Shown: piece by piece, positions 1 through 49,060 of the stretch
Layout of the letters: every line of letters begins with the position of its first letter
Numbering within the stretch: position 1 is the stretch's first letter
Assembly: GCA_020633295.1 (NCBI GenBank)
Contig: JACKDW010000006.1
Span: forward strand, 206,181 to 270,180
Source: Myxococcales bacterium
Lineage (GTDB): Bacteria > Myxococcota_A > Polyangia > Nannocystales > Nannocystaceae
Length of the DNA stretch: 64,000 nt
Reading direction: 5' to 3'
Translations under genes and position numbers: made by a program
Notes under the pieces: generated by a model
Seen by the model: the letters and a program-made list of their open reading frames with translations, nothing else
What the model was told of the DNA's origin: nothing
Database searches by the model: none

Positions 1-2
1 AC

Positions 3-155
3 GCGCAGGTCCCGGGCGACGCCGCGCCCGACCCGTCGTACCGTGTGCCCAGGGACACTGCGCTGCGCGAGCTGACTGAGGCAGGCTTCGTGCTGGAGCG
101 AGAGGAGACCTTCCTCGAGCACCAGTACTTCCTGATCCTCCGAGTCGGCCCGTGA
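3..155 (+). CDS. 3' end of an upstream CDS (partial; C-terminus ...LRELTEAGFVLEREETFLEHQYFLILRVGP). Function unknown, possibly a methyltransferase-like C-terminus. Its stop overlaps the GTG start of the next gene (GTGA).
   Basis: Open frame running in from the window edge to TGA at 153-155, co-directional with the cyclase gene and overlapping it by 4 nt. Confidence 0.3.
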   Translation, partial: AQVPGDAAPDPSYRVPRDTALRELTEAGFVLEREETFLEHQYFLILRVGP

Positions 156-2230
156 ACCCATCGCCCGTCGCGCCCTCCCCCACCTCCGATCACCCCGCCG
201 CGCCTGGCACCTCACCGAGGCGCCGCGCCCCTCGCGAGCAGCTCGACCGCGCGGAGGTGACCGTCCGCTACGCCCGCGCCGTCGCCCGGCTGGCCGCGCT
301 GCAGCGGCCCTCCGGGGCCGTCGCCGGCGAGGTCGGGTGGAACATCATGCTCGTGGCCCAGTACGTGATCCTGTGTCGCGTCGTCGGTCACGCGATCCCG
401 ACCGATCGCGCCGCGCGAATCGAGCGCGCGATCGAGCGCGCGGCTCGCCCTGACGGCGGCTGGGGCATGCACCCGCAGAGCCAGAGCTATCTGTTCCACA
501 CGCTCCTCGCCTACGTCGCGCTGCGCCTGCTGGGCCGCGCCCCCGACGACCCGCGCGTGGTCGCGGCGCGGCGCTGGATCCTCGGTCACGGCGGGGTCAC
601 CCGCGTGCCCACCTGGGGGCGCGTGTGGCTCGCGCTGCTCGGGCTGTACCCGTGGGACCACGTCCAGCCGATCGCGCCCGAGCTGTGGCTTCAGCCGGCG
701 GCCTCCCCCGCGCACCCCCGGCGCTTCTACTGCCACCTGCGCCTGATCTACCTCGGGCTGTCCTACGTCTACGGGTCGCGCCTGACCGCGGATCCGTGCG
801 CGCGGCTCGACGCGATCAAGCGCGAGCTGTACCCGGGCGGCTACGACGCGGCCCCGTTCGCCGCCCACCGGCACGAGGTCGCGTCGACCGACCTGTACGA
901 ACCAACAGGTGTGACCCTGCGCGCGCTGCTCGACGGCGTTCGCCGCGTCGAGGGGCGGGTCCCCGCCGCGCTGCGCCGTCGCGCGCTCGCGCGGGCCATG
1001 GACCACATCCGCTTCGAGTTCGAGAGCACGGACTACGTGTGCCTGAGCCCGGTCAACGGCATGCTGTTCTGCCTCGCGCTGTTCGCCGAGGATCCCTACC
1101 ACCCCGACCTCCCCCGCGCGCTCGCGGGGATCGAGTACTGGGTGTGGGAGGATGACGACGCGGGCATGCGCATCGCCGGCGCCCGCAGCGACATCTGGGA
1201 CACGAGCTTCGCGGTGCAGGCGCTGTGCGAGGGCCCGCGCGTCGACCACACCGCCCAGCTCGTCACGCGCATGTGCGACTGGCTCGCGCGCGCCCAGCTG
1301 CGCGCGGACATCCCGGGCGGCGCCGAGCACTACCGCGCCCCCGCGCGCGGCGGCTGGGGCTTCGCCGACGAGCGCCACCCGTGGCCGGTCAGCGACTGCA
1401 CCGCCGAGGCGATCGAGGCGCTGCTCGCCGCGGATCGCCTGCGACTCGGTCCCGACATCGCGCCGGATCTCGCGGCGGCCGTCGGCTTCATCCTCGCGCG
1501 CCAGAACGACGACGGCGGCTTCGGCTCCTACGAGGCGCGACGCGGCAGCCCGCTGCTGCGCCGCTTCAACCCGGCCGAGATCTACGGCAGCTGCATGATC
1601 GAGGAGAGCTACACCGAGTGCACCGCGAGCTGCGTGCGCGGCCTCGTCGCCGCGCGCGCGGAGCTCGGGCCGAGCGCGCCGCGGCGACTCCGTCGGGCGA
1701 TCGACCGCGCCGTTCGCCGCGGCGCGCGGCGTCTGCTCGCGGCCCAGGAGCGCTCGGGCGCCTGGGCTGGCTTTTGGGGCATCCACTACACCTACGGGAC
1801 GTTCTTCGCGGTCTCCGCGCTGCGCGCGGCCGGGCTGCCCGCGACCCACGCCGCGCTGCTGCGCGCGCGCGACTGGCTGCTCGAGCACCAGCGCGTCGAC
1901 GGCGGCTGGGGCGAGAGCCACGAGGGGCTGCTCCACGGGCGCCCCGCGCCGCTCCCCCCCGGGGATCCGAGCCTGGTTGTTCAGACAGCCTGGGCCGCGC
2001 TCACGCTGCTCGAGCTCCGCGCCGGCGCCAACGCCCGCGTCGACCAGGCGATCGAGCGCGCGATCGGGCTGCTCGCCGCGCGACAGCGCGCCGACGGGAG
2101 CTGGCCGCGCGAGCCCGCGACCGGCGTGTTCTTCAACACCGCGGTGCTCGACTACGATCTCTACCGCCAGGTGTTCCCGACCTGGGCGCTCGCGCGCTTC
2201 AGCGCGCGCGTCACTCGCTCGCCGGGTTGA
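152..2230 (+). CDS. Oxidosqualene cyclase (lanosterol/cycloartenol synthase family triterpene cyclase)
   Basis: 692 aa. Multiple QW-type repeats (GWG...). The catalytic-aspartate motif VSDCTAEA is the oxidosqualene cyclase (OSC) signature DCTAE, rather than the DxDDTA of squalene-hopene cyclases. Start is GTG at 152. Confidence 0.85.
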   Translation: MNPSPVAPSPTSDHPAAPGTSPRRRAPREQLDRAEVTVRYARAVARLAALQRPSGAVAGEVGWNIMLVAQYVILCRVVGHAIPTDRAARIERAIERAARPDGGWGMHPQSQSYLFHTLLAYVALRLLGRAPDDPRVVAARRWILGHGGVTRVPTWGRVWLALLGLYPWDHVQPIAPELWLQPAASPAHPRRFYCHLRLIYLGLSYVYGSRLTADPCARLDAIKRELYPGGYDAAPFAAHRHEVASTDLYEPTGVTLRALLDGVRRVEGRVPAALRRRALARAMDHIRFEFESTDYVCLSPVNGMLFCLALFAEDPYHPDLPRALAGIEYWVWEDDDAGMRIAGARSDIWDTSFAVQALCEGPRVDHTAQLVTRMCDWLARAQLRADIPGGAEHYRAPARGGWGFADERHPWPVSDCTAEAIEALLAADRLRLGPDIAPDLAAAVGFILARQNDDGGFGSYEARRGSPLLRRFNPAEIYGSCMIEESYTECTASCVRGLVAARAELGPSAPRRLRRAIDRAVRRGARRLLAAQERSGAWAGFWGIHYTYGTFFAVSALRAAGLPATHAALLRARDWLLEHQRVDGGWGESHEGLLHGRPAPLPPGDPSLVVQTAWAALTLLELRAGANARVDQAIERAIGLLAARQRADGSWPREPATGVFFNTAVLDYDLYRQVFPTWALARFSARVTRSPG

Positions 2231-3509
2231 CCTCGATCGTCGGCTCGACGCGCTCGACGCTGACGCGGATCACGTGGCGGTCGTCGGCCGCGAGGACCTT
2301 GAAGCGGATGTTCTCCCACACGAACACGGAGCCCGCGATCGGGATCTGACCGGCGAGGCGCGTCAAGAGATCGCCGATGCTGTCGACGCCCTCGAGCTCC
2401 TCGAACTCCTCGATCTTCAGGCGCTCCTCGACCCGCGTCAGGCTGTCCTGACCGTGGAAGTAGTAGACGCCGTCCTGCTGCTCCGGGCCCGAGCGCAGCG
2501 GCGCGCGGTCGGACTCGTCGAAGATCTGGCCGACGATCTGCTCGAGCACGTCCTCGAGCGTGATCACGCCGACCGTGTCGCCGGCGTCGTCGACGACGAT
2601 CCCGAGGTGCACGCGCTGCTCCTTGAAGCGGCGCAGCACGTCGTGGAGGCGCTGGGACTCGCTCACGAACACCGGCGGCCGCAGGATCCGCTCGATGGTC
2701 TCCTGGTCCGCCAGGCCGACGAGCTGCTTGATGTGCAGGATCCCGCGGATGCTGTCGACGTTGCCCTGGTAGACCGGCAGCCGGCTGTGGCCCGAGCGGA
2801 TCGCGACCTCGCGCACCTGCCGGGCGTCCCACTCGAGGTCGACGGCCGTCACGTTGTCGACCGGGACCATGATGTCGCGGACGATCTTGTCCTCGAAGCT
2901 GACGATGCGGCGCAGCAGCGCGGCCTGGTCGGCGTTGATCGAGCCCTGGCTGCGCCCGACCTTCACGAGGTAGCCGATCTCGTCCGACGTGACCGGGCTC
3001 GAGAGGCTGAGGTTGCCGCCGCCCGTGAAGCGCTTGAGCACGAAGTTCGTGATCCGCGTCAGCAGCCACAGCGCCGGCGACATCACGCGGCTGAGCGCGC
3101 TCAGGACCCCGAGCGCGGGCAGCGAGAGCTGCTCGCTGTAGGCGCGGCCGATCGCCTTGGGCGTGATCTCGCCGAAGATCAGCAGCAGGATGGTCGTCAG
3201 CACCACCGCGCCGCCGACCGCGTACTCGCCGTAGGGCCCCCCGTTGAGGTGGCGGATCGCCAGCGCGGTGACCAGCGCGCCCATGAGCGTGTTCGTGATG
3301 TTGTTGCCGACGAGGATCGTCGACAGCACGCGCACGGGGTGGTTGACCCAGAACTCCATCAGGCGACCGCGTCGCCCGCCCTCCTCGACCACGCGCCGGG
3401 CTCGATGGACGTCGAGGCTGGTGATCGCGGTCTCCGAGCCCGAGAAGAACATGCTCCCGATCACGCACAGCGCGACCACGAGCACCTGGAAGGCGTCGGT
3501 GTCATCCAT
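2211..3509 (-). CDS. CNNM/CorC/HlyC-family transporter-associated protein (DUF21 transmembrane domain + CBS pair + CorC_HlyC C-terminal domain)
   Basis: 432 aa. N-terminal hydrophobic DUF21-like region (VVALCVIGSMFFSGSETAITSL), CBS-like middle region, conserved CorC C-terminal segment. 3' end overlaps the convergent cyclase gene by 20 nt. Confidence 0.8.
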   Translation of the reverse strand: MDDTDAFQVLVVALCVIGSMFFSGSETAITSLDVHRARRVVEEGGRRGRLMEFWVNHPVRVLSTILVGNNITNTLMGALVTALAIRHLNGGPYGEYAVGGAVVLTTILLLIFGEITPKAIGRAYSEQLSLPALGVLSALSRVMSPALWLLTRITNFVLKRFTGGGNLSLSSPVTSDEIGYLVKVGRSQGSINADQAALLRRIVSFEDKIVRDIMVPVDNVTAVDLEWDARQVREVAIRSGHSRLPVYQGNVDSIRGILHIKQLVGLADQETIERILRPPVFVSESQRLHDVLRRFKEQRVHLGIVVDDAGDTVGVITLEDVLEQIVGQIFDESDRAPLRSGPEQQDGVYYFHGQDSLTRVEERLKIEEFEELEGVDSIGDLLTRLAGQIPIAGSVFVWENIRFKVLAADDRHVIRVSVERVEPTIEVNPASE

Positions 3510-4149
3510 GGCGACGAGCTCCCGGCGCGCGCGCGCGCCTCTGCGCGACGCGCCAGCGCGCGACAGGTTCGGGAACGTCGTCGTCAGCGTGTTCGGGGGC
3601 GTTCATGACTGCGAGAGCGTGCGCGCGAGCGACGAGGACCGCAGCGCGATGGAGCGGCTGGCCGCCCCACCCCGTCGGTGTACGGCGCACACACCCGATC
3701 GAGTGTGCCGCGCGCCCATACCATCGTCGTCATGCCCAGTCCTTCCGCGATATCGCGCTCGTCCGCTCACCTTCGATGTCGCCCCTCGAATTGGTCTGCA
3801 CCCGTCGTCGCCCGGCCTTCGCCGGCCTCGCTCGGGCCGCGATGGTCCTCGGCAGGATCCTCGGGATAGCGTCGGTTGTCCGGGGTGCGCTGGCAAGTCC
3901 GAACCTCGAGCGGGTTTCGAACGCTGTTCGTGGGCGGATTTGAGCGAAAATTGCACCGCGCGCGAACACCACGACACGCGTGTCAGGGTGGGATTTGCGA
4001 ACATCGCGCAGCTCGGACATTTGCGTCATAGCATGGACCCAAACTGCAGCCAGCGCCGCCTTCACTGAAACAATTTCAACGAGTTAGTGTGATGGATCAA
4101 TCCATGCTTCTAGTTCGGGCGTCGGCGGGACCCGCCGTACACTTCCTCA

Positions 4150-4320
4150 TCAAACCGTAGCTTGGCTTACCACTCGCTTGACTTGACCTGACCTGACTTG
4201 AACTGCACCTGGCTTACGTGACTTCCGGCCTACCTTAACTCACTTCGCTTAACGCATTGCTTAGCCTGGCCTGGTTTCACGTCTCTTGAGCTTATCTTGC
4301 GCTTGACTTGACTTATCGAA
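4150..4320. repeat. AT-richer intergenic island with tandem YTGAC pentamer arrays (cTTGAC TTGAC cTGAC cTGAC TTGAAC at ~4178-4204; cTTGAC TTGAC TTatcg at ~4296-4314) and recurring GCTTA words
   Basis: Read directly. GC content drops sharply relative to flanks. No ORF with plausible composition. Confidence 0.6.
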
Positions 4321-4450
4321 GACGACGAGCGCGTTCGCGCTTTCGCATGGTCGGTGCTGCTATCGAACATCTAAACTGGGGGGGGACCCAGGATGGCCTG
4401 GTCAGCTGTCCTGGGTTTCCGTTTTGGTTGGCGCTGGGTCCTCGCGCCAG

Positions 4451-5404
4451 CTAGCGCTCGTGCAGGTGGTCGTCGGGCTCGGGCACCCGATCCGCGAGCC
4501 GCCAGACCTGCTCGGCCGGCACCCGGTCCTCGATCCCCTCCTCGAGCTCGAGGCGCCCGGGGTCGTCGACGGGCAACGGCAGACGCGCGGCGTCGAGCAC
4601 GAGGTGGGCCCGCAGGGCGCACTGGGGCCCCAGCGGCATCGCGTGCAGCGCCGGCGCCCAGCCGTCCCTGCCAACTACAGCTGGCTCGAGGTGCAGGCGC
4701 CCGTCGCAGCGCGGGCACGGGATCTTGTGGTCCTGCTCGCCGCGCCACAGCGTGATCAGCGGCGGGTCGCCGCGGCCGTGCACGCGGCGGGCCTCGGACC
4801 ACCAGCGCGCGTCGAAGCGGTACACGCCGGGCAGCGCGTCCGCCGGGAGGATCCGCGCGCAGCCCTCGGTCCCGAGCAGCCAGCGCGCCGCCAGGTAGTA
4901 GGCCGGCGCCTGCCGGCCCTCGTGCTCACGTGTCTCAACGAACAGCAACGGGTGCTCGAAGTGGGGATCGAGCGACCACGAGCGCGCCAGCTCCTCGCGC
5001 GCGGCCCCGGCGAGCCGCCAGAACCGGTGCCCGACGACGACCCGCGTCAACCGATCGACGAACACGAACAGGACGTTCGAGAGCTTGCGCCACGGGTCGA
5101 TGGAGAGATCGCAGACCTTGAGCTTGTCGCACACGAGCCGCCCGGAGCGCCGCCGCCACACCGACACGAGCTTCAGCTCGATGCGGTCCTCCCAGTCGAG
5201 CACCGCGTCGCCGTCGTGGGGCTCGAGCCCGAGGTGCCACTGCAGCGCGTTGCCGTGGCGCCCCCGCGAGCGACGGCGCGTCACCAAGCGGGCCGCCGGG
5301 CCGAGCGGCAGCCCGAGCGCGGCCTCGGCGAGCGCCTCGAGGTACGCGCAGCGCCGCGCGGGCGCGTCGCGCCCAGGCGGCGGGTGACGTATCGGCATGC
5401 GCAC
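4451..5404 (-). CDS. Hypothetical protein (317 aa). Possible PD-(D/E)xK-like motif (HDGDAVLDWEDRIELKLV) and Cys-pair CPRCDGRL.
   Basis: Long ORF with protein-like composition (K, I, F, W present, unlike the Arg/Ala-rich artefact frames). Sits immediately downstream of the small lipoprotein gene. Confidence 0.45.
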   Translation of the reverse strand: MRMPIRHPPPGRDAPARRCAYLEALAEAALGLPLGPAARLVTRRRSRGRHGNALQWHLGLEPHDGDAVLDWEDRIELKLVSVWRRRSGRLVCDKLKVCDLSIDPWRKLSNVLFVFVDRLTRVVVGHRFWRLAGAAREELARSWSLDPHFEHPLLFVETREHEGRQAPAYYLAARWLLGTEGCARILPADALPGVYRFDARWWSEARRVHGRGDPPLITLWRGEQDHKIPCPRCDGRLHLEPAVVGRDGWAPALHAMPLGPQCALRAHLVLDAARLPLPVDDPGRLELEEGIEDRVPAEQVWRLADRVPEPDDHLHER

Positions 5405-46819: not shown

Positions 46820-47560
46820 CTACGGCGTCCTGCGAAACCGCAGGAAGTAGTTCTCGCGCAGCGTCCCCGCGCGCAGCGCGACCGGGCCCTCGAGCGCGAA
46901 GCCGGCCGCCTCGAGCTCGCCGACGACCTCGCGCTCGCCCGCGCGGACATGCTCGAGCAGCCAGGCCGCGCTCTCCCCCTCCACGCGGTCGTAGTCGATC
47001 AAGTACAGGAGTCCCCCCGGCCGCAGCGCCGCGTGGATCTCCGCCAGGTACGCGCGCGGGTACTCGATGTGGTGATACGCGTCGCTGGTGAACACGACGT
47101 CGACGGAGCCCGCCGCCAGCGACGGCGAGCGCTCGGTCGCCTGCACCGTCGTGACGACCTCGGCGACGCCCTGCGCCGCCGCCTGGGCCCGGATGTGGGC
47201 GAGGAAGTGCGGCATCAAGTCGACCGCGAACACGCGCCCGGCGGGCCCCACGGCCTTCGCGAGCAGCATCGTGAACAGCCCCGTGCCCGCGCCGATGTCC
47301 GCGACCGCGACCCCGGGCTGGAGCGCGAGCGCCTCGACGATCGCGTGCCGGTGATCGAAGACCTCGCGCCCCTCGCGTTCAAACCGCCGCCGCCACGGGC
47401 GGATCGTCGCCTGCTCGAAGTAGCTGTCGTTGATCCCCGGGTGCACGCTGGCCTCCGGCGTCGCGTCCGCGGCCTCGCCCGCCCGCGCGACGCCGGCGTC
47501 CTCCGTCGGCGCGTGGGCCACGGCCGCGTGCGCCGGCGCGCCCAGGCTGGGCGCGCGCGC
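46820..47560 (-). CDS. Class I SAM-dependent methyltransferase domain (Methyltransf_11/25-like). 5' end and start codon unresolved (see frameshift finding).
   Basis: VADIGAGTGLFTMLLAKAV (motif I)...VDVVFTSDAYHH...PGGLLYLIDY. No ATG in frame upstream of the domain within ORF 46820..48844. Confidence 0.55.
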   Translation of the reverse strand, partial: ARAPSLGAPAHAAVAHAPTEDAGVARAGEAADATPEASVHPGINDSYFEQATIRPWRRRFEREGREVFDHRHAIVEALALQPGVAVADIGAGTGLFTMLLAKAVGPAGRVFAVDLMPHFLAHIRAQAAAQGVAEVVTTVQATERSPSLAAGSVDVVFTSDAYHHIEYPRAYLAEIHAALRPGGLLYLIDYDRVEGESAAWLLEHVRAGEREVVGELEAAGFALEGPVALRAGTLRENYFLRFRRTP

Positions 47561-47668
47561 GCGCGTCCGGGGTCGCCGGCGCCTCCACCCTCGCGGCCGG
47601 GATCGCGCAGGCCGTGATACACAGGAGCGCGCCGACGAGCTCGCGGGCGCGCGCGGGAGACCGGTGAA

Positions 47669-49060
47669 TTGCGATCCGCACGACGCACGCACGCTACCAC
47701 CTCCACCCCACACGCACGCGACATCGCGCCGCAGCGCCGTCGCGCGTCGTCCCTCGCGCTCGTGTCCGCGCTCACCCTGTGCACGCACGCCGCGTGCGCC
47801 CCGGTCGCGCGCGCCCCGAACCACGAGCACGCCGTGAAGCCCGATCGCGACCACGACGCCCACGATCCCGCCGCGCCGCGTGAGCCCGCCGCGACCCTCG
47901 AGCTCGTCGAGAGCTGGCCGCTCGAGACCCGCCTCGCGCAGCCCGACCTCGTCGACGCCGCGCGCGCGTGGGTGGAGATGATCGACGGCGCCGAGACGAC
48001 CATCGACCTCGCCGAGTTCTACGGCGCGACCGTCGAGGGCGGCGCGCTCGAGCCGGTGATCGAGGCGCTCGAGCGCGCCGCCGCGCGCGGCGTCACGATC
48101 CGCGCGCTGTTCGACCGCAGCTTCCACGAGAAGATGCCCGCGGTCCCCGACCGCCTCGCCGCGATCGCCGGCGTCGACGTCCGGCTCATCGACGGCGCGC
48201 GCTACGGCGAGCGCGGGGTCCTGCACGCCAAGTACTTCGTCGTCGATCGCCGCGCGCTGTTCCTCGGCAGCCAGAACTTCGACTGGCGGGCGCTCGAGCA
48301 CATCCTCGAGCTCGGCGTGCGCCTGCGCCACGACGGCCTCGCGCGCCGCTTGACCTGGCTGTTTGAGCACGACTGGGCGCTCGCCGGCGGCGCTGACCCG
48401 ACGGGGGCGCGCGCGACCGCGGACCGCGCGGCCGCGAGCCCGCCGCCCGACGGCGACGACGCGGCGCGCTTCGGCGACGAGCCGCTCGCGCTCGAGCTGC
48501 TCGCCAGCCCGCGCGACGCCCTCGAGCGCCCCGGCGACTGGGACCTCCCACGGCTCGTCGCCGCCATCGACGGCGCGCGCGCGGACGTGCGCGTGCAGCT
48601 GCTCAGCTACGGCACCGAGCCCCCGGACGGCGACGACGCGGCGCGCTTCGCCGCGCTCGACGACGCGCTGCGCCGCGCGGCCGCCCGCGGCGTGCGGACG
48701 CGGCTGCTCGTCGCCCACTGGAGCACGGCCGAGGACCGCCTCGCGCCGCTGCGCGCGCTCGAGCGCGCCGCCAACCTCGAGGTCGCGTTCGTCACGATCC
48801 CGCCCCACAGCGGCGGCTTCATCCCCTTCGCGCGGGTCGCCCACAGCAAGTACCTCGTCGTCGACGAGGCGCTCGCGTGGATCGGCACGAGCAACTGGTC
48901 GCGGGAGTACTTCTACGGCAGCCGCAACGTCGGGCTGCTCGTCCGCGGCGGCGCGGTCGCGCGGCGGCTCGCGCGGCTCTACGATGACCTCTGGGACAGC
49001 TCGTACACCACCCGCCTCGACCCGGACGCGAGCTACCCGCCGCCGCGCGTCGCCGAGTGA
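47669..49060 (+). CDS. Phospholipase D-family protein with two HKD motifs (cardiolipin synthase/PLD-like), predicted secreted lipoprotein
   Basis: HAKYFVVDRRALFLGSQNFD and HSKYLVVDEALAWIGTSNWS (HxKxxxxD x2). Signal LALVSALTLCTHAAC. Exact start uncertain. Confidence 0.75.
   Translation: MRSARRTHATTSTPHARDIAPQRRRASSLALVSALTLCTHAACAPVARAPNHEHAVKPDRDHDAHDPAAPREPAATLELVESWPLETRLAQPDLVDAARAWVEMIDGAETTIDLAEFYGATVEGGALEPVIEALERAAARGVTIRALFDRSFHEKMPAVPDRLAAIAGVDVRLIDGARYGERGVLHAKYFVVDRRALFLGSQNFDWRALEHILELGVRLRHDGLARRLTWLFEHDWALAGGADPTGARATADRAAASPPPDGDDAARFGDEPLALELLASPRDALERPGDWDLPRLVAAIDGARADVRVQLLSYGTEPPDGDDAARFAALDDALRRAAARGVRTRLLVAHWSTAEDRLAPLRALERAANLEVAFVTIPPHSGGFIPFARVAHSKYLVVDEALAWIGTSNWSREYFYGSRNVGLLVRGGAVARRLARLYDDLWDSSYTTRLDPDASYPPPRVAE

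What the first reader, a model, noticed from the sequence alone, without database searches (positions are those of the whole stretch)
152..2230. Bacterial oxidosqualene (sterol) cyclase
The 692-aa protein carries the DCTAE catalytic motif of eukaryote-type oxidosqualene cyclases (lanosterol/cycloartenol synthases), not the DxDD motif of hopene cyclases. Sterol synthesis is rare in bacteria and patchily distributed (some myxobacteria, methanotrophs, planctomycetes). The gene is translationally coupled to an upstream partial ORF whose product may be another sterol-pathway enzyme such as squalene epoxidase or a sterol-modifying enzyme. The downstream convergent CorC gene overlaps it by 20 nt.
Basis: partly seen in the sequence, partly recalled or inferred. 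Interest (0 to 1): 0.55.

Follow-up and report, generated by a model that had tools for sequence, protein, structure and literature searches.

The report
Myxobacterial lanosterol-type oxidosqualene cyclase gene
This gene encodes an intact oxidosqualene cyclase, the enzyme that folds oxidosqualene into the first sterol (predicted to be lanosterol), but it is the standard, vertically inherited version found in essentially every relative of this uncultured Nannocystis-like myxobacterium, so it is ordinary for its lineage.

Summary
ORF 152..2230 (+) encodes a 692-aa, full-length class II triterpene cyclase with VSDCTAE (Asp415). It matches human lanosterol synthase far better than squalene-hopene cyclase, and every mapped catalytic residue is conserved.

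The window DNA is identical to a Myxococcales/Polyangia MAG contig. The protein is an orthologue (52-76% identity, shared gene order) of the single OSC of Nannocystaceae. That family includes Enhygromyxa salina, Plesiocystis pacifica and Nannocystis, which are documented lanosterol, zymosterol or cholesterol producers. All 61 clade sequences, and the window protein, have V at human position 453, the bacterial "lanosterol" marker.

The published literature already states that Nannocystaceae OSCs are lanosterol-type, vertically inherited and not next to squalene monooxygenase. So this is a new, unannotated member of a known kind.

The upstream partial ORF is not squalene epoxidase. It is a small class I SAM methyltransferase with a conserved lipoprotein-type signal. 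It sits directly upstream of the OSC in 51 of 58 Nannocystales loci, often with an NTGA stop/start overlap. Its function is unknown, and this pairing is the only possibly new element. No other sterol gene lies in the 64-kb window.

The parts
1..155 (+). 3' end (last 50 codons plus stop) of a class I SAM-dependent methyltransferase gene. The full 232-aa product, with a lipoprotein-type signal peptide, is recovered from the identical MAG contig L001.
   Evidence: Translation of the fragment. L001 is identical DNA and extends the window by about 1.09 kb. Pfam Methyltransf_11/12/25/31 only. Directly upstream of the OSC in 51 of 58 related loci. Lipobox Cys and SAM motif I are conserved.
152..2230 (+). 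Oxidosqualene cyclase gene (692 aa from the GTG at 152), predicted lanosterol synthase.
152..155 (+). GTGA overlap of the OSC start (GTG) and the methyltransferase stop (TGA).
   Evidence: The same NTGA junction occurs in about 22 of 55 related loci, including E. salina and P. pacifica.
257..259 (+). Alternative GTG start used in the public MAG annotation (657-aa product).
   Evidence: It is not conserved as a start in the 76% relative, where the aligned residue is Leu.
734..736 (+). His195 codon, equivalent to human H232 (deprotonation region).
   Evidence: Invariant in clade alignment A2.
1388..1390 (+). Val413 codon, equivalent to human V453. This is the position that separates lanosterol (V) from cycloartenol (I) synthases in bacteria.
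   Evidence: The rule comes from PMC4919349.
1394..1408 (+). DCTAE motif (Asp415 is the catalytic acid; Cys416 is its partner).
1529..1531 (+). Tyr460 codon, equivalent to human Y503.
1862..1909 (+). QW repeat (RARDWLLEHQRVDGGW).
2057..2104 (+). QW repeat (RAIGLLAARQRADGSW).
2211..3509 (-). Convergent CNNM/CBS/CorC_HlyC (CorC/GldE-like) membrane protein gene. Its 3' end overlaps the OSC 3' end by 20 nt (2211-2230). It is a syntenic neighbour and probably unrelated in function.
   Evidence: Convergent-adjacent in 25 of 54 related loci.

Best explanation
The ORF encodes a functional oxidosqualene cyclase of the Nannocystaceae 'Group I' lanosterol-synthase lineage, carried on the core chromosome of an uncultured Polyangia/Nannocystales myxobacterium. 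The inferred mechanism follows the human enzyme. Asp415, polarised by Cys416 and Cys490, protonates the epoxide of (3S)-2,3-oxidosqualene. Aromatic residues (W349, F404, W542, F660, Y668) stabilise the carbocations of the cyclisation cascade to the protosteryl cation. After hydride and methyl shifts, the His195/Tyr460 region removes a proton. Val413 (human V453) favours lanosterol over cycloartenol. The gene is the second cistron of a conserved two-gene unit with a lipoprotein-type SAM methyltransferase of unknown function. Squalene monooxygenase and the downstream sterol-tailoring genes are expected elsewhere in the genome, as in all Nannocystaceae. What is shown here: gene integrity, family assignment, residue conservation, orthology and synteny. 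What is inferred: catalytic activity, lanosterol as the product, and actual sterol production by the organism.
For: Pfam SQHop_cyclase_N and _C cover the whole protein. TIGR03463 (2,3-oxidosqualene cyclase) scores 689 bits over model positions 2-633 of 634, against 263 bits for hopene cyclase TIGR01507. In the PDB, a plant OSC scores 1e-114 and human lanosterol synthase 1.7e-111, against 2e-57 for SHC. Human D455, C456, C533, H232, Y503, W387, F444, W581, F696, Y704 and Y707 all align to identical residues. The protein is 52-76% identical to the OSCs of about 65 Nannocystales genomes, including E. salina DSM 15201, P. pacifica SIR-1 and N. exedens DSM 71. It shares the upstream MT gene with these loci, which supports orthology. 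All 61 clade sequences, like the window protein, have H449/V453 and GA[RK]S at the 381 region, so the window protein matches proven lanosterol producers at these determinants. From the literature: E. salina and P. pacifica make lanosterol and zymosterol, and V453 correlates with lanosterol in all bacteria tested (PMC4919349). All cultured Nannocystaceae have a lanosterol-type, vertically inherited Osc that is not co-localised with Smo (bioRxiv 10.1101/2024.11.01.621555). N. pusilla OSC has V453 and its sterol genes are scattered (PMC10152446).
Against: The score is below the curated TIGR03463 cut-off (689 vs 851). However, the same holds for every clade member tested, including proven sterol producers (629-711 bits). 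Two of the three classical product-determining positions are not lanosterol-like: position 381 is Ala with a one-residue deletion, and position 449 is His as in cycloartenol synthases. Human Y98 aligns to Val61 and W230 to Tyr193. No squalene monooxygenase or other sterol gene is present in the 64-kb window, or within 10 kb upstream in the closest relative, so substrate supply is unverified. No biochemical data exist for this protein. One myxobacterium with intact SE and OSC (C. coralloides) made no detectable sterol (PMC4919349).
Confidence: 0.85

Rival explanations
1. It is a cycloartenol synthase (plant or Stigmatella type) rather than a lanosterol synthase.
For: Position 449 (human numbering) is His, the cycloartenol-synthase residue.
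Against: Position 453 is Val and not Ile. In all bacteria tested, V453 tracks lanosterol and I453 cycloartenol (PMC4919349). Orthologues with the identical A/H/V triad belong to organisms that make lanosterol rather than cycloartenol. Position 381 is not Tyr.
Confidence: 0.05
2. It is an OSC-family enzyme that makes a non-sterol triterpenoid (such as an arborinol-type product or another rearranged product) from oxidosqualene.
For: It scores below the TIGR03463 cut-off. Positions 98, 230 and 381 differ from the human enzyme. Non-steroidal bacterial OSCs exist (mentioned in PMC8237579).
Against: Those non-steroidal enzymes form a subcluster of the cycloartenol-type Group II and have lost sterol-forming residues. 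Here the sterol-forming residues are kept. The same deviations are shared by the only OSC of lanosterol/cholesterol producers. The primary arborinol-synthase paper could not be read, so its diagnostic residues were not compared directly.
Confidence: 0.04
3. The gene is intact but silent or physiologically irrelevant, and the organism makes no sterols.
For: C. coralloides has intact SE and OSC but no detectable sterols (PMC4919349). No SQMO was seen in the window.
Against: Full-length conservation, invariant catalytic residues and strong coding bias (GC3 0.94) indicate purifying selection. All cultured members of the family that were examined make sterols. Scattered sterol genes are the norm in this family.
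Confidence: 0.06
4. It is a squalene-hopene cyclase, or another squalene cyclase that acts on non-epoxidised substrate.
For: Shared fold, and the Pfam domain names are SQHop_cyclase_N/C.
Against: There is no DxDD motif; VSDCTAE sits at the aligned site. TIGR01507 scores 263 bits against a cut-off of 431. SHC structures match far more weakly than lanosterol synthase.
Confidence: 0.01

Closest known systems
Nannocystaceae oxidosqualene cyclase / lanosterol synthase (Enhygromyxa salina, Plesiocystis pacifica PPSIR1_04883, Nannocystis exedens/pusilla)
   Same: 52-62% identity over the full length. The catalytic and product-determining residues are identical (H449/V453, GARS, DCTAE). The sub-cut-off TIGR03463 score is the same. 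The upstream methyltransferase gene is the same in E. salina, P. pacifica and Paraliomyxa. There is no adjacent squalene monooxygenase.
   Different: It comes from an uncultured lineage whose nearest relative is a Polyangia MAG at 76%, with all named genera at 64% or less. It lacks the 25-35-residue insertion that Enhygromyxa-group enzymes carry after GGWGMHP. There are no lipid or enzyme data.
Human lanosterol synthase (PDB 1W6K)
   Same: Same two-barrel fold family and the VSDCTAE catalytic motif. D455, C456, C533, H232, Y503, W387, F444, W581, F696, Y704 and V453 are all conserved.
   Different: It is a distant relative (E = 1.7e-111, 377 bits). T381 is replaced by Ala with a one-residue deletion, C449 by His, Y98 by Val (alignment uncertain) and W230 by Tyr. 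The N-terminus is shorter.
Stigmatella aurantiaca / Myxococcaceae cycloartenol synthase
   Same: A myxobacterial OSC with the DCTAE motif.
   Different: Those enzymes have I453, make cycloartenol, lie next to squalene monooxygenase and represent a separate acquisition. The window enzyme has V453 and no adjacent SMO.
Squalene-hopene cyclase (Alicyclobacillus acidocaldarius, PDB 1GSZ/2SQC)
   Same: Same superfamily, with QW repeats and alpha/alpha barrels.
   Different: SHC uses a DxDD motif and non-epoxidised squalene. The match is much weaker (198 bits vs 377 bits to lanosterol synthase).
Aquifex aeolicus SAM-dependent methyltransferase 3DH0 (closest structure to the upstream MT)
   Same: Minimal class I Rossmann methyltransferase core. 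Foldseek TM (target) is 0.90 and phmmer E is 2.9e-13.
   Different: 3DH0 has no known function. The Nannocystales protein adds an N-terminal signal peptide with a conserved lipobox Cys, and it is encoded directly upstream of the OSC.

Membership tests
Oxidosqualene cyclase (EC 5.4.99.7/8; class II triterpene cyclase, OSC branch) | Two alpha/alpha-barrel cyclase domains covering the full length | tested here: met
   PF13249 (aa 41-335) and PF13243 (aa 346-683), E = 5e-60 and 3e-51. TIGR03463 positions 2-633 of 634 are matched.
Oxidosqualene cyclase (EC 5.4.99.7/8; class II triterpene cyclase, OSC branch) | Catalytic Asp in the V-x-D-C-T-A-E motif (human D455), in place of the DxDD of squalene cyclases | tested here: met
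   VSDCTAE at aa 413-419 aligns to human 453-459.
Oxidosqualene cyclase (EC 5.4.99.7/8; class II triterpene cyclase, OSC branch) | Cys pair hydrogen-bonded to the catalytic Asp (human C456, C533), and the H232/Y503 deprotonation region | tested here: met
   C416, C490, H195 and Y460 align to these residues and are invariant in the clade.
Oxidosqualene cyclase (EC 5.4.99.7/8; class II triterpene cyclase, OSC branch) | Score at or above the curated cut-off of the NCBIfam OSC model TIGR03463 (851 bits) | tested here: not met
   689 bits. The whole Nannocystaceae clade, including proven sterol producers, scores 629-711, so the cut-off excludes this bona fide OSC lineage. The broader TIGR01787 is passed (476 vs 322.7).
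Oxidosqualene cyclase (EC 5.4.99.7/8; class II triterpene cyclase, OSC branch) | QW repeats | tested here: met
   2 strict and 4 relaxed Q-x(2-5)-G-x-W/F motifs.
Oxidosqualene cyclase (EC 5.4.99.7/8; class II triterpene cyclase, OSC branch) | Cyclises 2,3-oxidosqualene to a protosterol | not testable with these tools
   Needs a heterologous expression assay or lipid GC-MS.
Oxidosqualene cyclase (EC 5.4.99.7/8; class II triterpene cyclase, OSC branch) | Genome also encodes a squalene monooxygenase to supply the substrate | not testable with these tools
   None in the 64-kb window, nor within 10 kb on either side of the 76% relative. In Nannocystaceae, Smo is normally unlinked.
Lanosterol synthase subtype | Val at human position 453 (the only predictive position in bacteria) | tested here: met
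   V413 in the window protein. All 61 clade sequences have V. The rule is from PMC4919349.
Lanosterol synthase subtype | T381 and C/Q449 (eukaryotic lanosterol-synthase pattern) | tested here: not met
   Ala344 (with a one-residue gap) and His409. The same is true of lanosterol-producing E. salina and P. pacifica, so these two positions are not diagnostic in bacteria.
Cycloartenol synthase subtype | Y381 / H449 / I453 | tested here: not met
   Only H449 matches. Position 453 is Val and position 381 is Ala.
Squalene-hopene cyclase | DxDD protonation motif and TIGR01507 score of at least 431 | tested here: not met
   The motif is absent, and the score is 263 bits.
Sterol C-methyltransferase (SMT/ERG6 family), considered for the upstream ORF | SMT-type architecture (about 340-380 aa with the Sterol_MT_C domain) | tested here: not met
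   The upstream protein is 232 aa with only generic Methyltransf_11/12/25/31 hits. There is no Sterol_MT_C hit and no NCBIfam model reaches its cut-off. The fold search gives only generic small-molecule MTs.
Squalene epoxidase, considered for the upstream ORF | FAD-binding monooxygenase with the SE domain (PF08491) | tested here: not met
   The upstream ORF is a SAM methyltransferase.

The most novel reading that the evidence does not exclude
The small lipoprotein-type SAM methyltransferase that is translationally coupled to the OSC may be an undescribed component of bacterial sterol biology. It could modify or handle a sterol or triterpenoid (or its precursor) at the membrane or periplasmic face, which would make MT-OSC a functional sterol operon that the sterol papers searched here do not mention. 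It sits directly upstream of the OSC in 51 of 58 Nannocystales loci, including E. salina and P. pacifica. Its lipobox Cys is at least 98% conserved and its SAM motif I is near-invariant. The pairing survives where the rest of the neighbourhood has changed.
Probability: 0.15. Interest if true: 0.55.

Novelty: new member of a known kind. Interest (0 to 1): 0.2.

Why it matters
The result assigns a function (lanosterol-type OSC) to a protein that is deposited only as "hypothetical protein" in a MAG. It adds one more uncultured Polyangia/Nannocystales lineage to the known bacterial sterol producers, which is mildly relevant to the interpretation of sterane biomarkers and to the myxobacterial-origin hypothesis for eukaryotic sterol synthesis. 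It does not change the current picture, because published work already states that Nannocystaceae, including MAGs, universally carry this enzyme. Two practical points follow. First, the NCBIfam OSC model cut-off systematically misses this clade, so annotations read "hypothetical", "prenyltransferase repeat protein" or even "squalene-hopene cyclase". Second, the conserved MT-OSC gene pair is a cheap, testable lead in organisms that are already cultured (E. salina, P. pacifica).

Tried and rejected
- The exact-sequence look-up of the 692-aa product found nothing, because the public annotation uses a later start. The 657-aa version (P0001) was found.
- I looked for squalene monooxygenase or any sterol-tailoring gene among about 40 GC3-supported ORFs of the window. 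None was present.
- There was also none within 10 kb on either side of the OSC in the 76% relative or in N. radixulma.
- The MT could not be given a specific function. Pfam, NCBIfam, PDB sequence search, AlphaFold model and Foldseek against the PDB returned only generic class I methyltransferases.
- Literature searches for a methyltransferase next to the OSC in myxobacteria found nothing.
- The arborinol-synthase paper (PMC5240688) is not held, so its diagnostic residues were not compared.
- Rfam, tRNA and promoter/terminator scans added nothing relevant.
- MT-OSC linkage is not obligatory. In N. pusilla the MT orthologue (62% identity) lies about 2.8 Mb from the OSC, beside TatD, L3 and FtsJ genes.
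- The SHC and cycloartenol-synthase readings were considered and rejected on motif and HMM evidence.
Full report
**1. Observation**

The window is about 72% GC. The ORF shows the codon-position bias of a real gene in such a genome, with GC1/2/3 of 0.76/0.55/0.94.

- DCTAE is at aa 415-419, nt 1394-1408.
- The GTG at 152-154 overlaps the TGA (153-155) of an upstream ORF that runs off the window's 5' edge.
- A convergent ORF at 2211..3509 (-) has CNNM, CBS and CorC_HlyC domains and overlaps the OSC 3' end by 20 nt.

All factual statements in the finding are therefore confirmed.

The only uncertainty is the start codon. The identical protein in a public MAG is annotated from the GTG at 257, giving 657 aa. 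I favour 152 for these reasons:
- The 76%-identical relative has a TTG at the equivalent NTGA junction, and its translation begins with the same "MN".
- The residue aligned to the 257 GTG is Leu in that relative.
- The two N-termini differ by an in-frame 7-codon indel.
- About 22 of 55 related loci have an in-frame NTG overlapping the upstream stop.

**2. What the protein is**

Pfam finds the N- and C-terminal cyclase barrels across the whole length. NCBIfam gives 689 bits to the 2,3-oxidosqualene cyclase model TIGR03463 (model positions 2-633 of 634), against 263 bits to hopene cyclase. Against solved structures, a plant OSC (8J5Z, 1e-114) and human lanosterol synthase (1W6K, 1.7e-111) match far better than squalene-hopene cyclase (2e-57).

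From the printed alignment to 1W6K, checked directly on the sequence, the residues map as follows:

| Human residue | Window residue | Note |
|---|---|---|
| D455 | D415 | conserved (catalytic acid) |
| C456 | C416 | conserved |
| C533 | C490 | conserved |
| H232 | H195 | conserved |
| Y503 | Y460 | conserved |
| W387 | W349 | conserved |
| F444 | F404 | conserved |
| W581 | W542 | conserved |
| F696 | F660 | conserved |
| Y704 | Y668 | conserved |
| Y707 | Y671 | conserved |
| T381 | A344 | differs, with a one-residue gap |
| C449 | H409 | differs |
| W230 | Y193 | differs |
| Y98 | V61 | differs; alignment in this segment is less certain |

Two strict and four relaxed QW motifs are present.

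**3. The sub-threshold HMM score**

The score of 689 bits is below the curated TIGR03463 cut-off of 851. I tested whether this signals an atypical enzyme. It does not. The OSCs of E. salina DSM 15201 (681), E. salina SWB005 (702), P. pacifica SIR-1 (629), Nannocystis spp. (702-711) and Pseudenhygromyxa (700) all fall below the cut-off, while all pass the broader TIGR01787. This explains why public records name these proteins "hypothetical protein", [quoted passage not shown] or "squalene-hopene cyclase".

**4. Origin and orthology**

The first 400 nt of the window are identical to contig JAGQIM010001275.1 of GCA_020431325.1, labelled "Myxococcales bacterium". The OSC, the CNNM protein and the available part of the next ORF on that contig are also 100% identical at protein level.

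The nearest other sequence is from a Polyangia MAG at 76% identity. About 65 further species-level genomes carry homologues at 52-68%. They are almost all labelled Nannocystis, Enhygromyxa, Plesiocystis, Paraliomyxa, Nannocystaceae or Nannocystales. In a 15-sequence alignment the catalytic regions are invariant.

**5. Predicted product**

In every bacterium tested by Wei et al., V453 goes with lanosterol and I453 with cycloartenol, and positions 381 and 449 are not predictive in bacteria (PMC4919349). The same paper reports that E. salina and P. pacifica make lanosterol and zymosterol. E. salina goes on to make cholesterol (PMC10202945).

All 61 Nannocystales sequences that span the motif have H449 and V453, and GA[RK]S at the 381 region. 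The window protein is identical at these positions to the enzymes of P. pacifica SIR-1, E. salina DSM 15201 and N. exedens DSM 71. Lanosterol is therefore the expected product. This is an inference from orthology and one diagnostic residue, not a measurement.

**6. Surroundings**

I called genes by GC3 and scanned about 40 of them against Pfam.
- 4-37 kb holds regulators (a sigma-54 activator, a histidine kinase, response-regulator-like proteins), TPR proteins, proteases, an aminotransferase and outer-membrane proteins.
- 37-64 kb holds RF-2, an M16 peptidase, a PLD-family protein, TyrRS, the F1 ATP synthase genes and others.

There is no squalene monooxygenase, CYP51, sterol reductase or demethylase anywhere in the window. 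There is also none within 10 kb on either side of the OSC in the 76% relative or in N. radixulma.

This agrees with published statements. In E. salina the sterol genes are scattered (PMC10202945). [quoted passage not shown] N. pusilla is described in the same way (PMC10152446). No Rfam family, credible tRNA, or promoter/terminator signal bears on the locus.

**7. The upstream ORF**

The MAG contig supplies the whole gene. It encodes a 232-aa protein with only generic class I SAM-methyltransferase domains. No NCBIfam model reaches its cut-off, and there is no sterol-MT C-terminal domain. It is not squalene epoxidase.

Its position is conserved. It lies directly upstream on the same strand in 51 of 58 Nannocystales loci that have enough upstream sequence, at 48-77% identity. 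These include three E. salina strains, P. pacifica and Paraliomyxa. The seven exceptions are all Nannocystis. By contrast, the convergent CNNM gene is adjacent in only 25 of 54 loci, and 20 loci keep the MT but not the CNNM gene. So the MT-OSC pair outlasts the surrounding synteny.

Nearly all orthologues carry a hydrophobic N-terminal stretch that ends in a Cys conserved in at least 98% of sequences, about 12 residues before a conserved PPQHYDDP motif. This is a lipoprotein-type signal. SAM motif I (DIGAGSGYFT) is near-invariant.

A confident AlphaFold model (pLDDT 87) resembles only an uncharacterised Aquifex methyltransferase (3DH0, TM 0.90) and then generic small-molecule MTs.

Several points argue against a sterol role:
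- In N. pusilla the orthologue sits about 2.8 Mb from the OSC among housekeeping genes.
- The sterols named for these genera in the passages I read (lanosterol, zymosterol, cholesterol) carry no extra methyl group. For the nannosterols this rests on my own recollection of that work, not on a passage read here.
- An exported lipoprotein would, from general knowledge, not be expected to have access to SAM.

None of the sterol papers I could read mentions this gene. I treat it as an operon partner of unknown function. The idea that it acts on sterols is the most novel reading the evidence leaves open, with a probability of about 0.15.

**8. Comparison with known systems and novelty**

The protein works like, and is a member of, the OSC family, specifically the lanosterol-type Nannocystaceae lineage. 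Of the membership features I could test, the fold, the motif, the catalytic residues, the QW repeats and the V453 marker are met. The one feature not met is the curated TIGR03463 cut-off, which the whole bona fide lineage also fails. The eukaryotic T381/C449 pattern is also not met, but it is not diagnostic in bacteria. Enzymatic activity and the presence of SQMO in the genome could not be tested.

The kind is well described, and its presence in Nannocystaceae MAGs is published. The gene is therefore a new, previously unannotated member of a known kind and is unsurprising for its lineage.

**9. Verdict**

- Interest is 0.2.
- Confidence that this is a functional OSC of the lanosterol type is about 0.85.

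Noticed in passing
window 1-155 (+); complete gene in L001 547-1245: A class I SAM methyltransferase with a conserved lipoprotein-type signal (lipobox Cys at least 98% conserved) sits directly upstream of the OSC in 51 of 58 Nannocystales loci, often with an NTGA stop/start overlap. It is unlinked only in Nannocystis. An exported or lipid-anchored SAM-MT coupled to a sterol cyclase is odd, and none of the sterol papers I read mentions it.
   Followed up: yes
L066 (Streptomyces rectiverticillatus NZ_CP040752.1:41741-63672), about 3.7-19.5 kb; also L067, L068, L072: Four Streptomyces genomes carry an OSC-type cyclase with WPV[SG]DCTAEA (37-41% identity to the window OSC; L066, the only one scored against TIGR03463, gives 637 bits). 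In S. rectiverticillatus it is flanked by a squalene epoxidase, a 3beta-HSD-family dehydrogenase, an EBP/EXPERA protein, an MMPL transporter and a lipase. This looks like a compact sterol or triterpenol cluster near a chromosome end. I found no paper describing it in the held library.
   Followed up: partly
window 4451-5404 (-): A 317-aa protein with no Pfam hit is conserved at 49-84% identity, usually 2-6 kb downstream of the OSC-CNNM pair, in about 30 related loci. Its function is unknown and it is probably just syntenic.
   Followed up: no
window 152-2230; public record GCA_020431325.1 (KC468_30590): The identical protein is deposited as 'hypothetical protein'. Relatives are variously named 'squalene-hopene cyclase' or 'prenyltransferase/squalene oxidase repeat-containing protein'. 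The cause is that the whole Nannocystaceae OSC clade scores 629-711 bits, below the 851-bit cut-off of NCBIfam TIGR03463.
   Followed up: yes
window 48077-48163 (-): ARAGORN calls an 87-nt tRNA-Thr(CGU) inside a GC3-supported PLD-family ORF (47618-49060, +). Rfam reports no tRNA there at gathering threshold, so it is probably a false positive.
   Followed up: no
window about 46820-47400 (-): A second, unrelated class I methyltransferase domain (Methyltransf_11, 66 bits) lies at the C-terminal end of a long stop-to-stop ORF that otherwise shadows the PLD gene on the opposite strand. The true gene is probably much shorter than the 789-codon open frame.
   Followed up: no
window 3510-4450: A stretch of about 0.9 kb between the CNNM gene and the 317-aa ORF has no GC3-supported ORF and no Rfam match. 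It may be a regulatory or intergenic region.
   Followed up: partly
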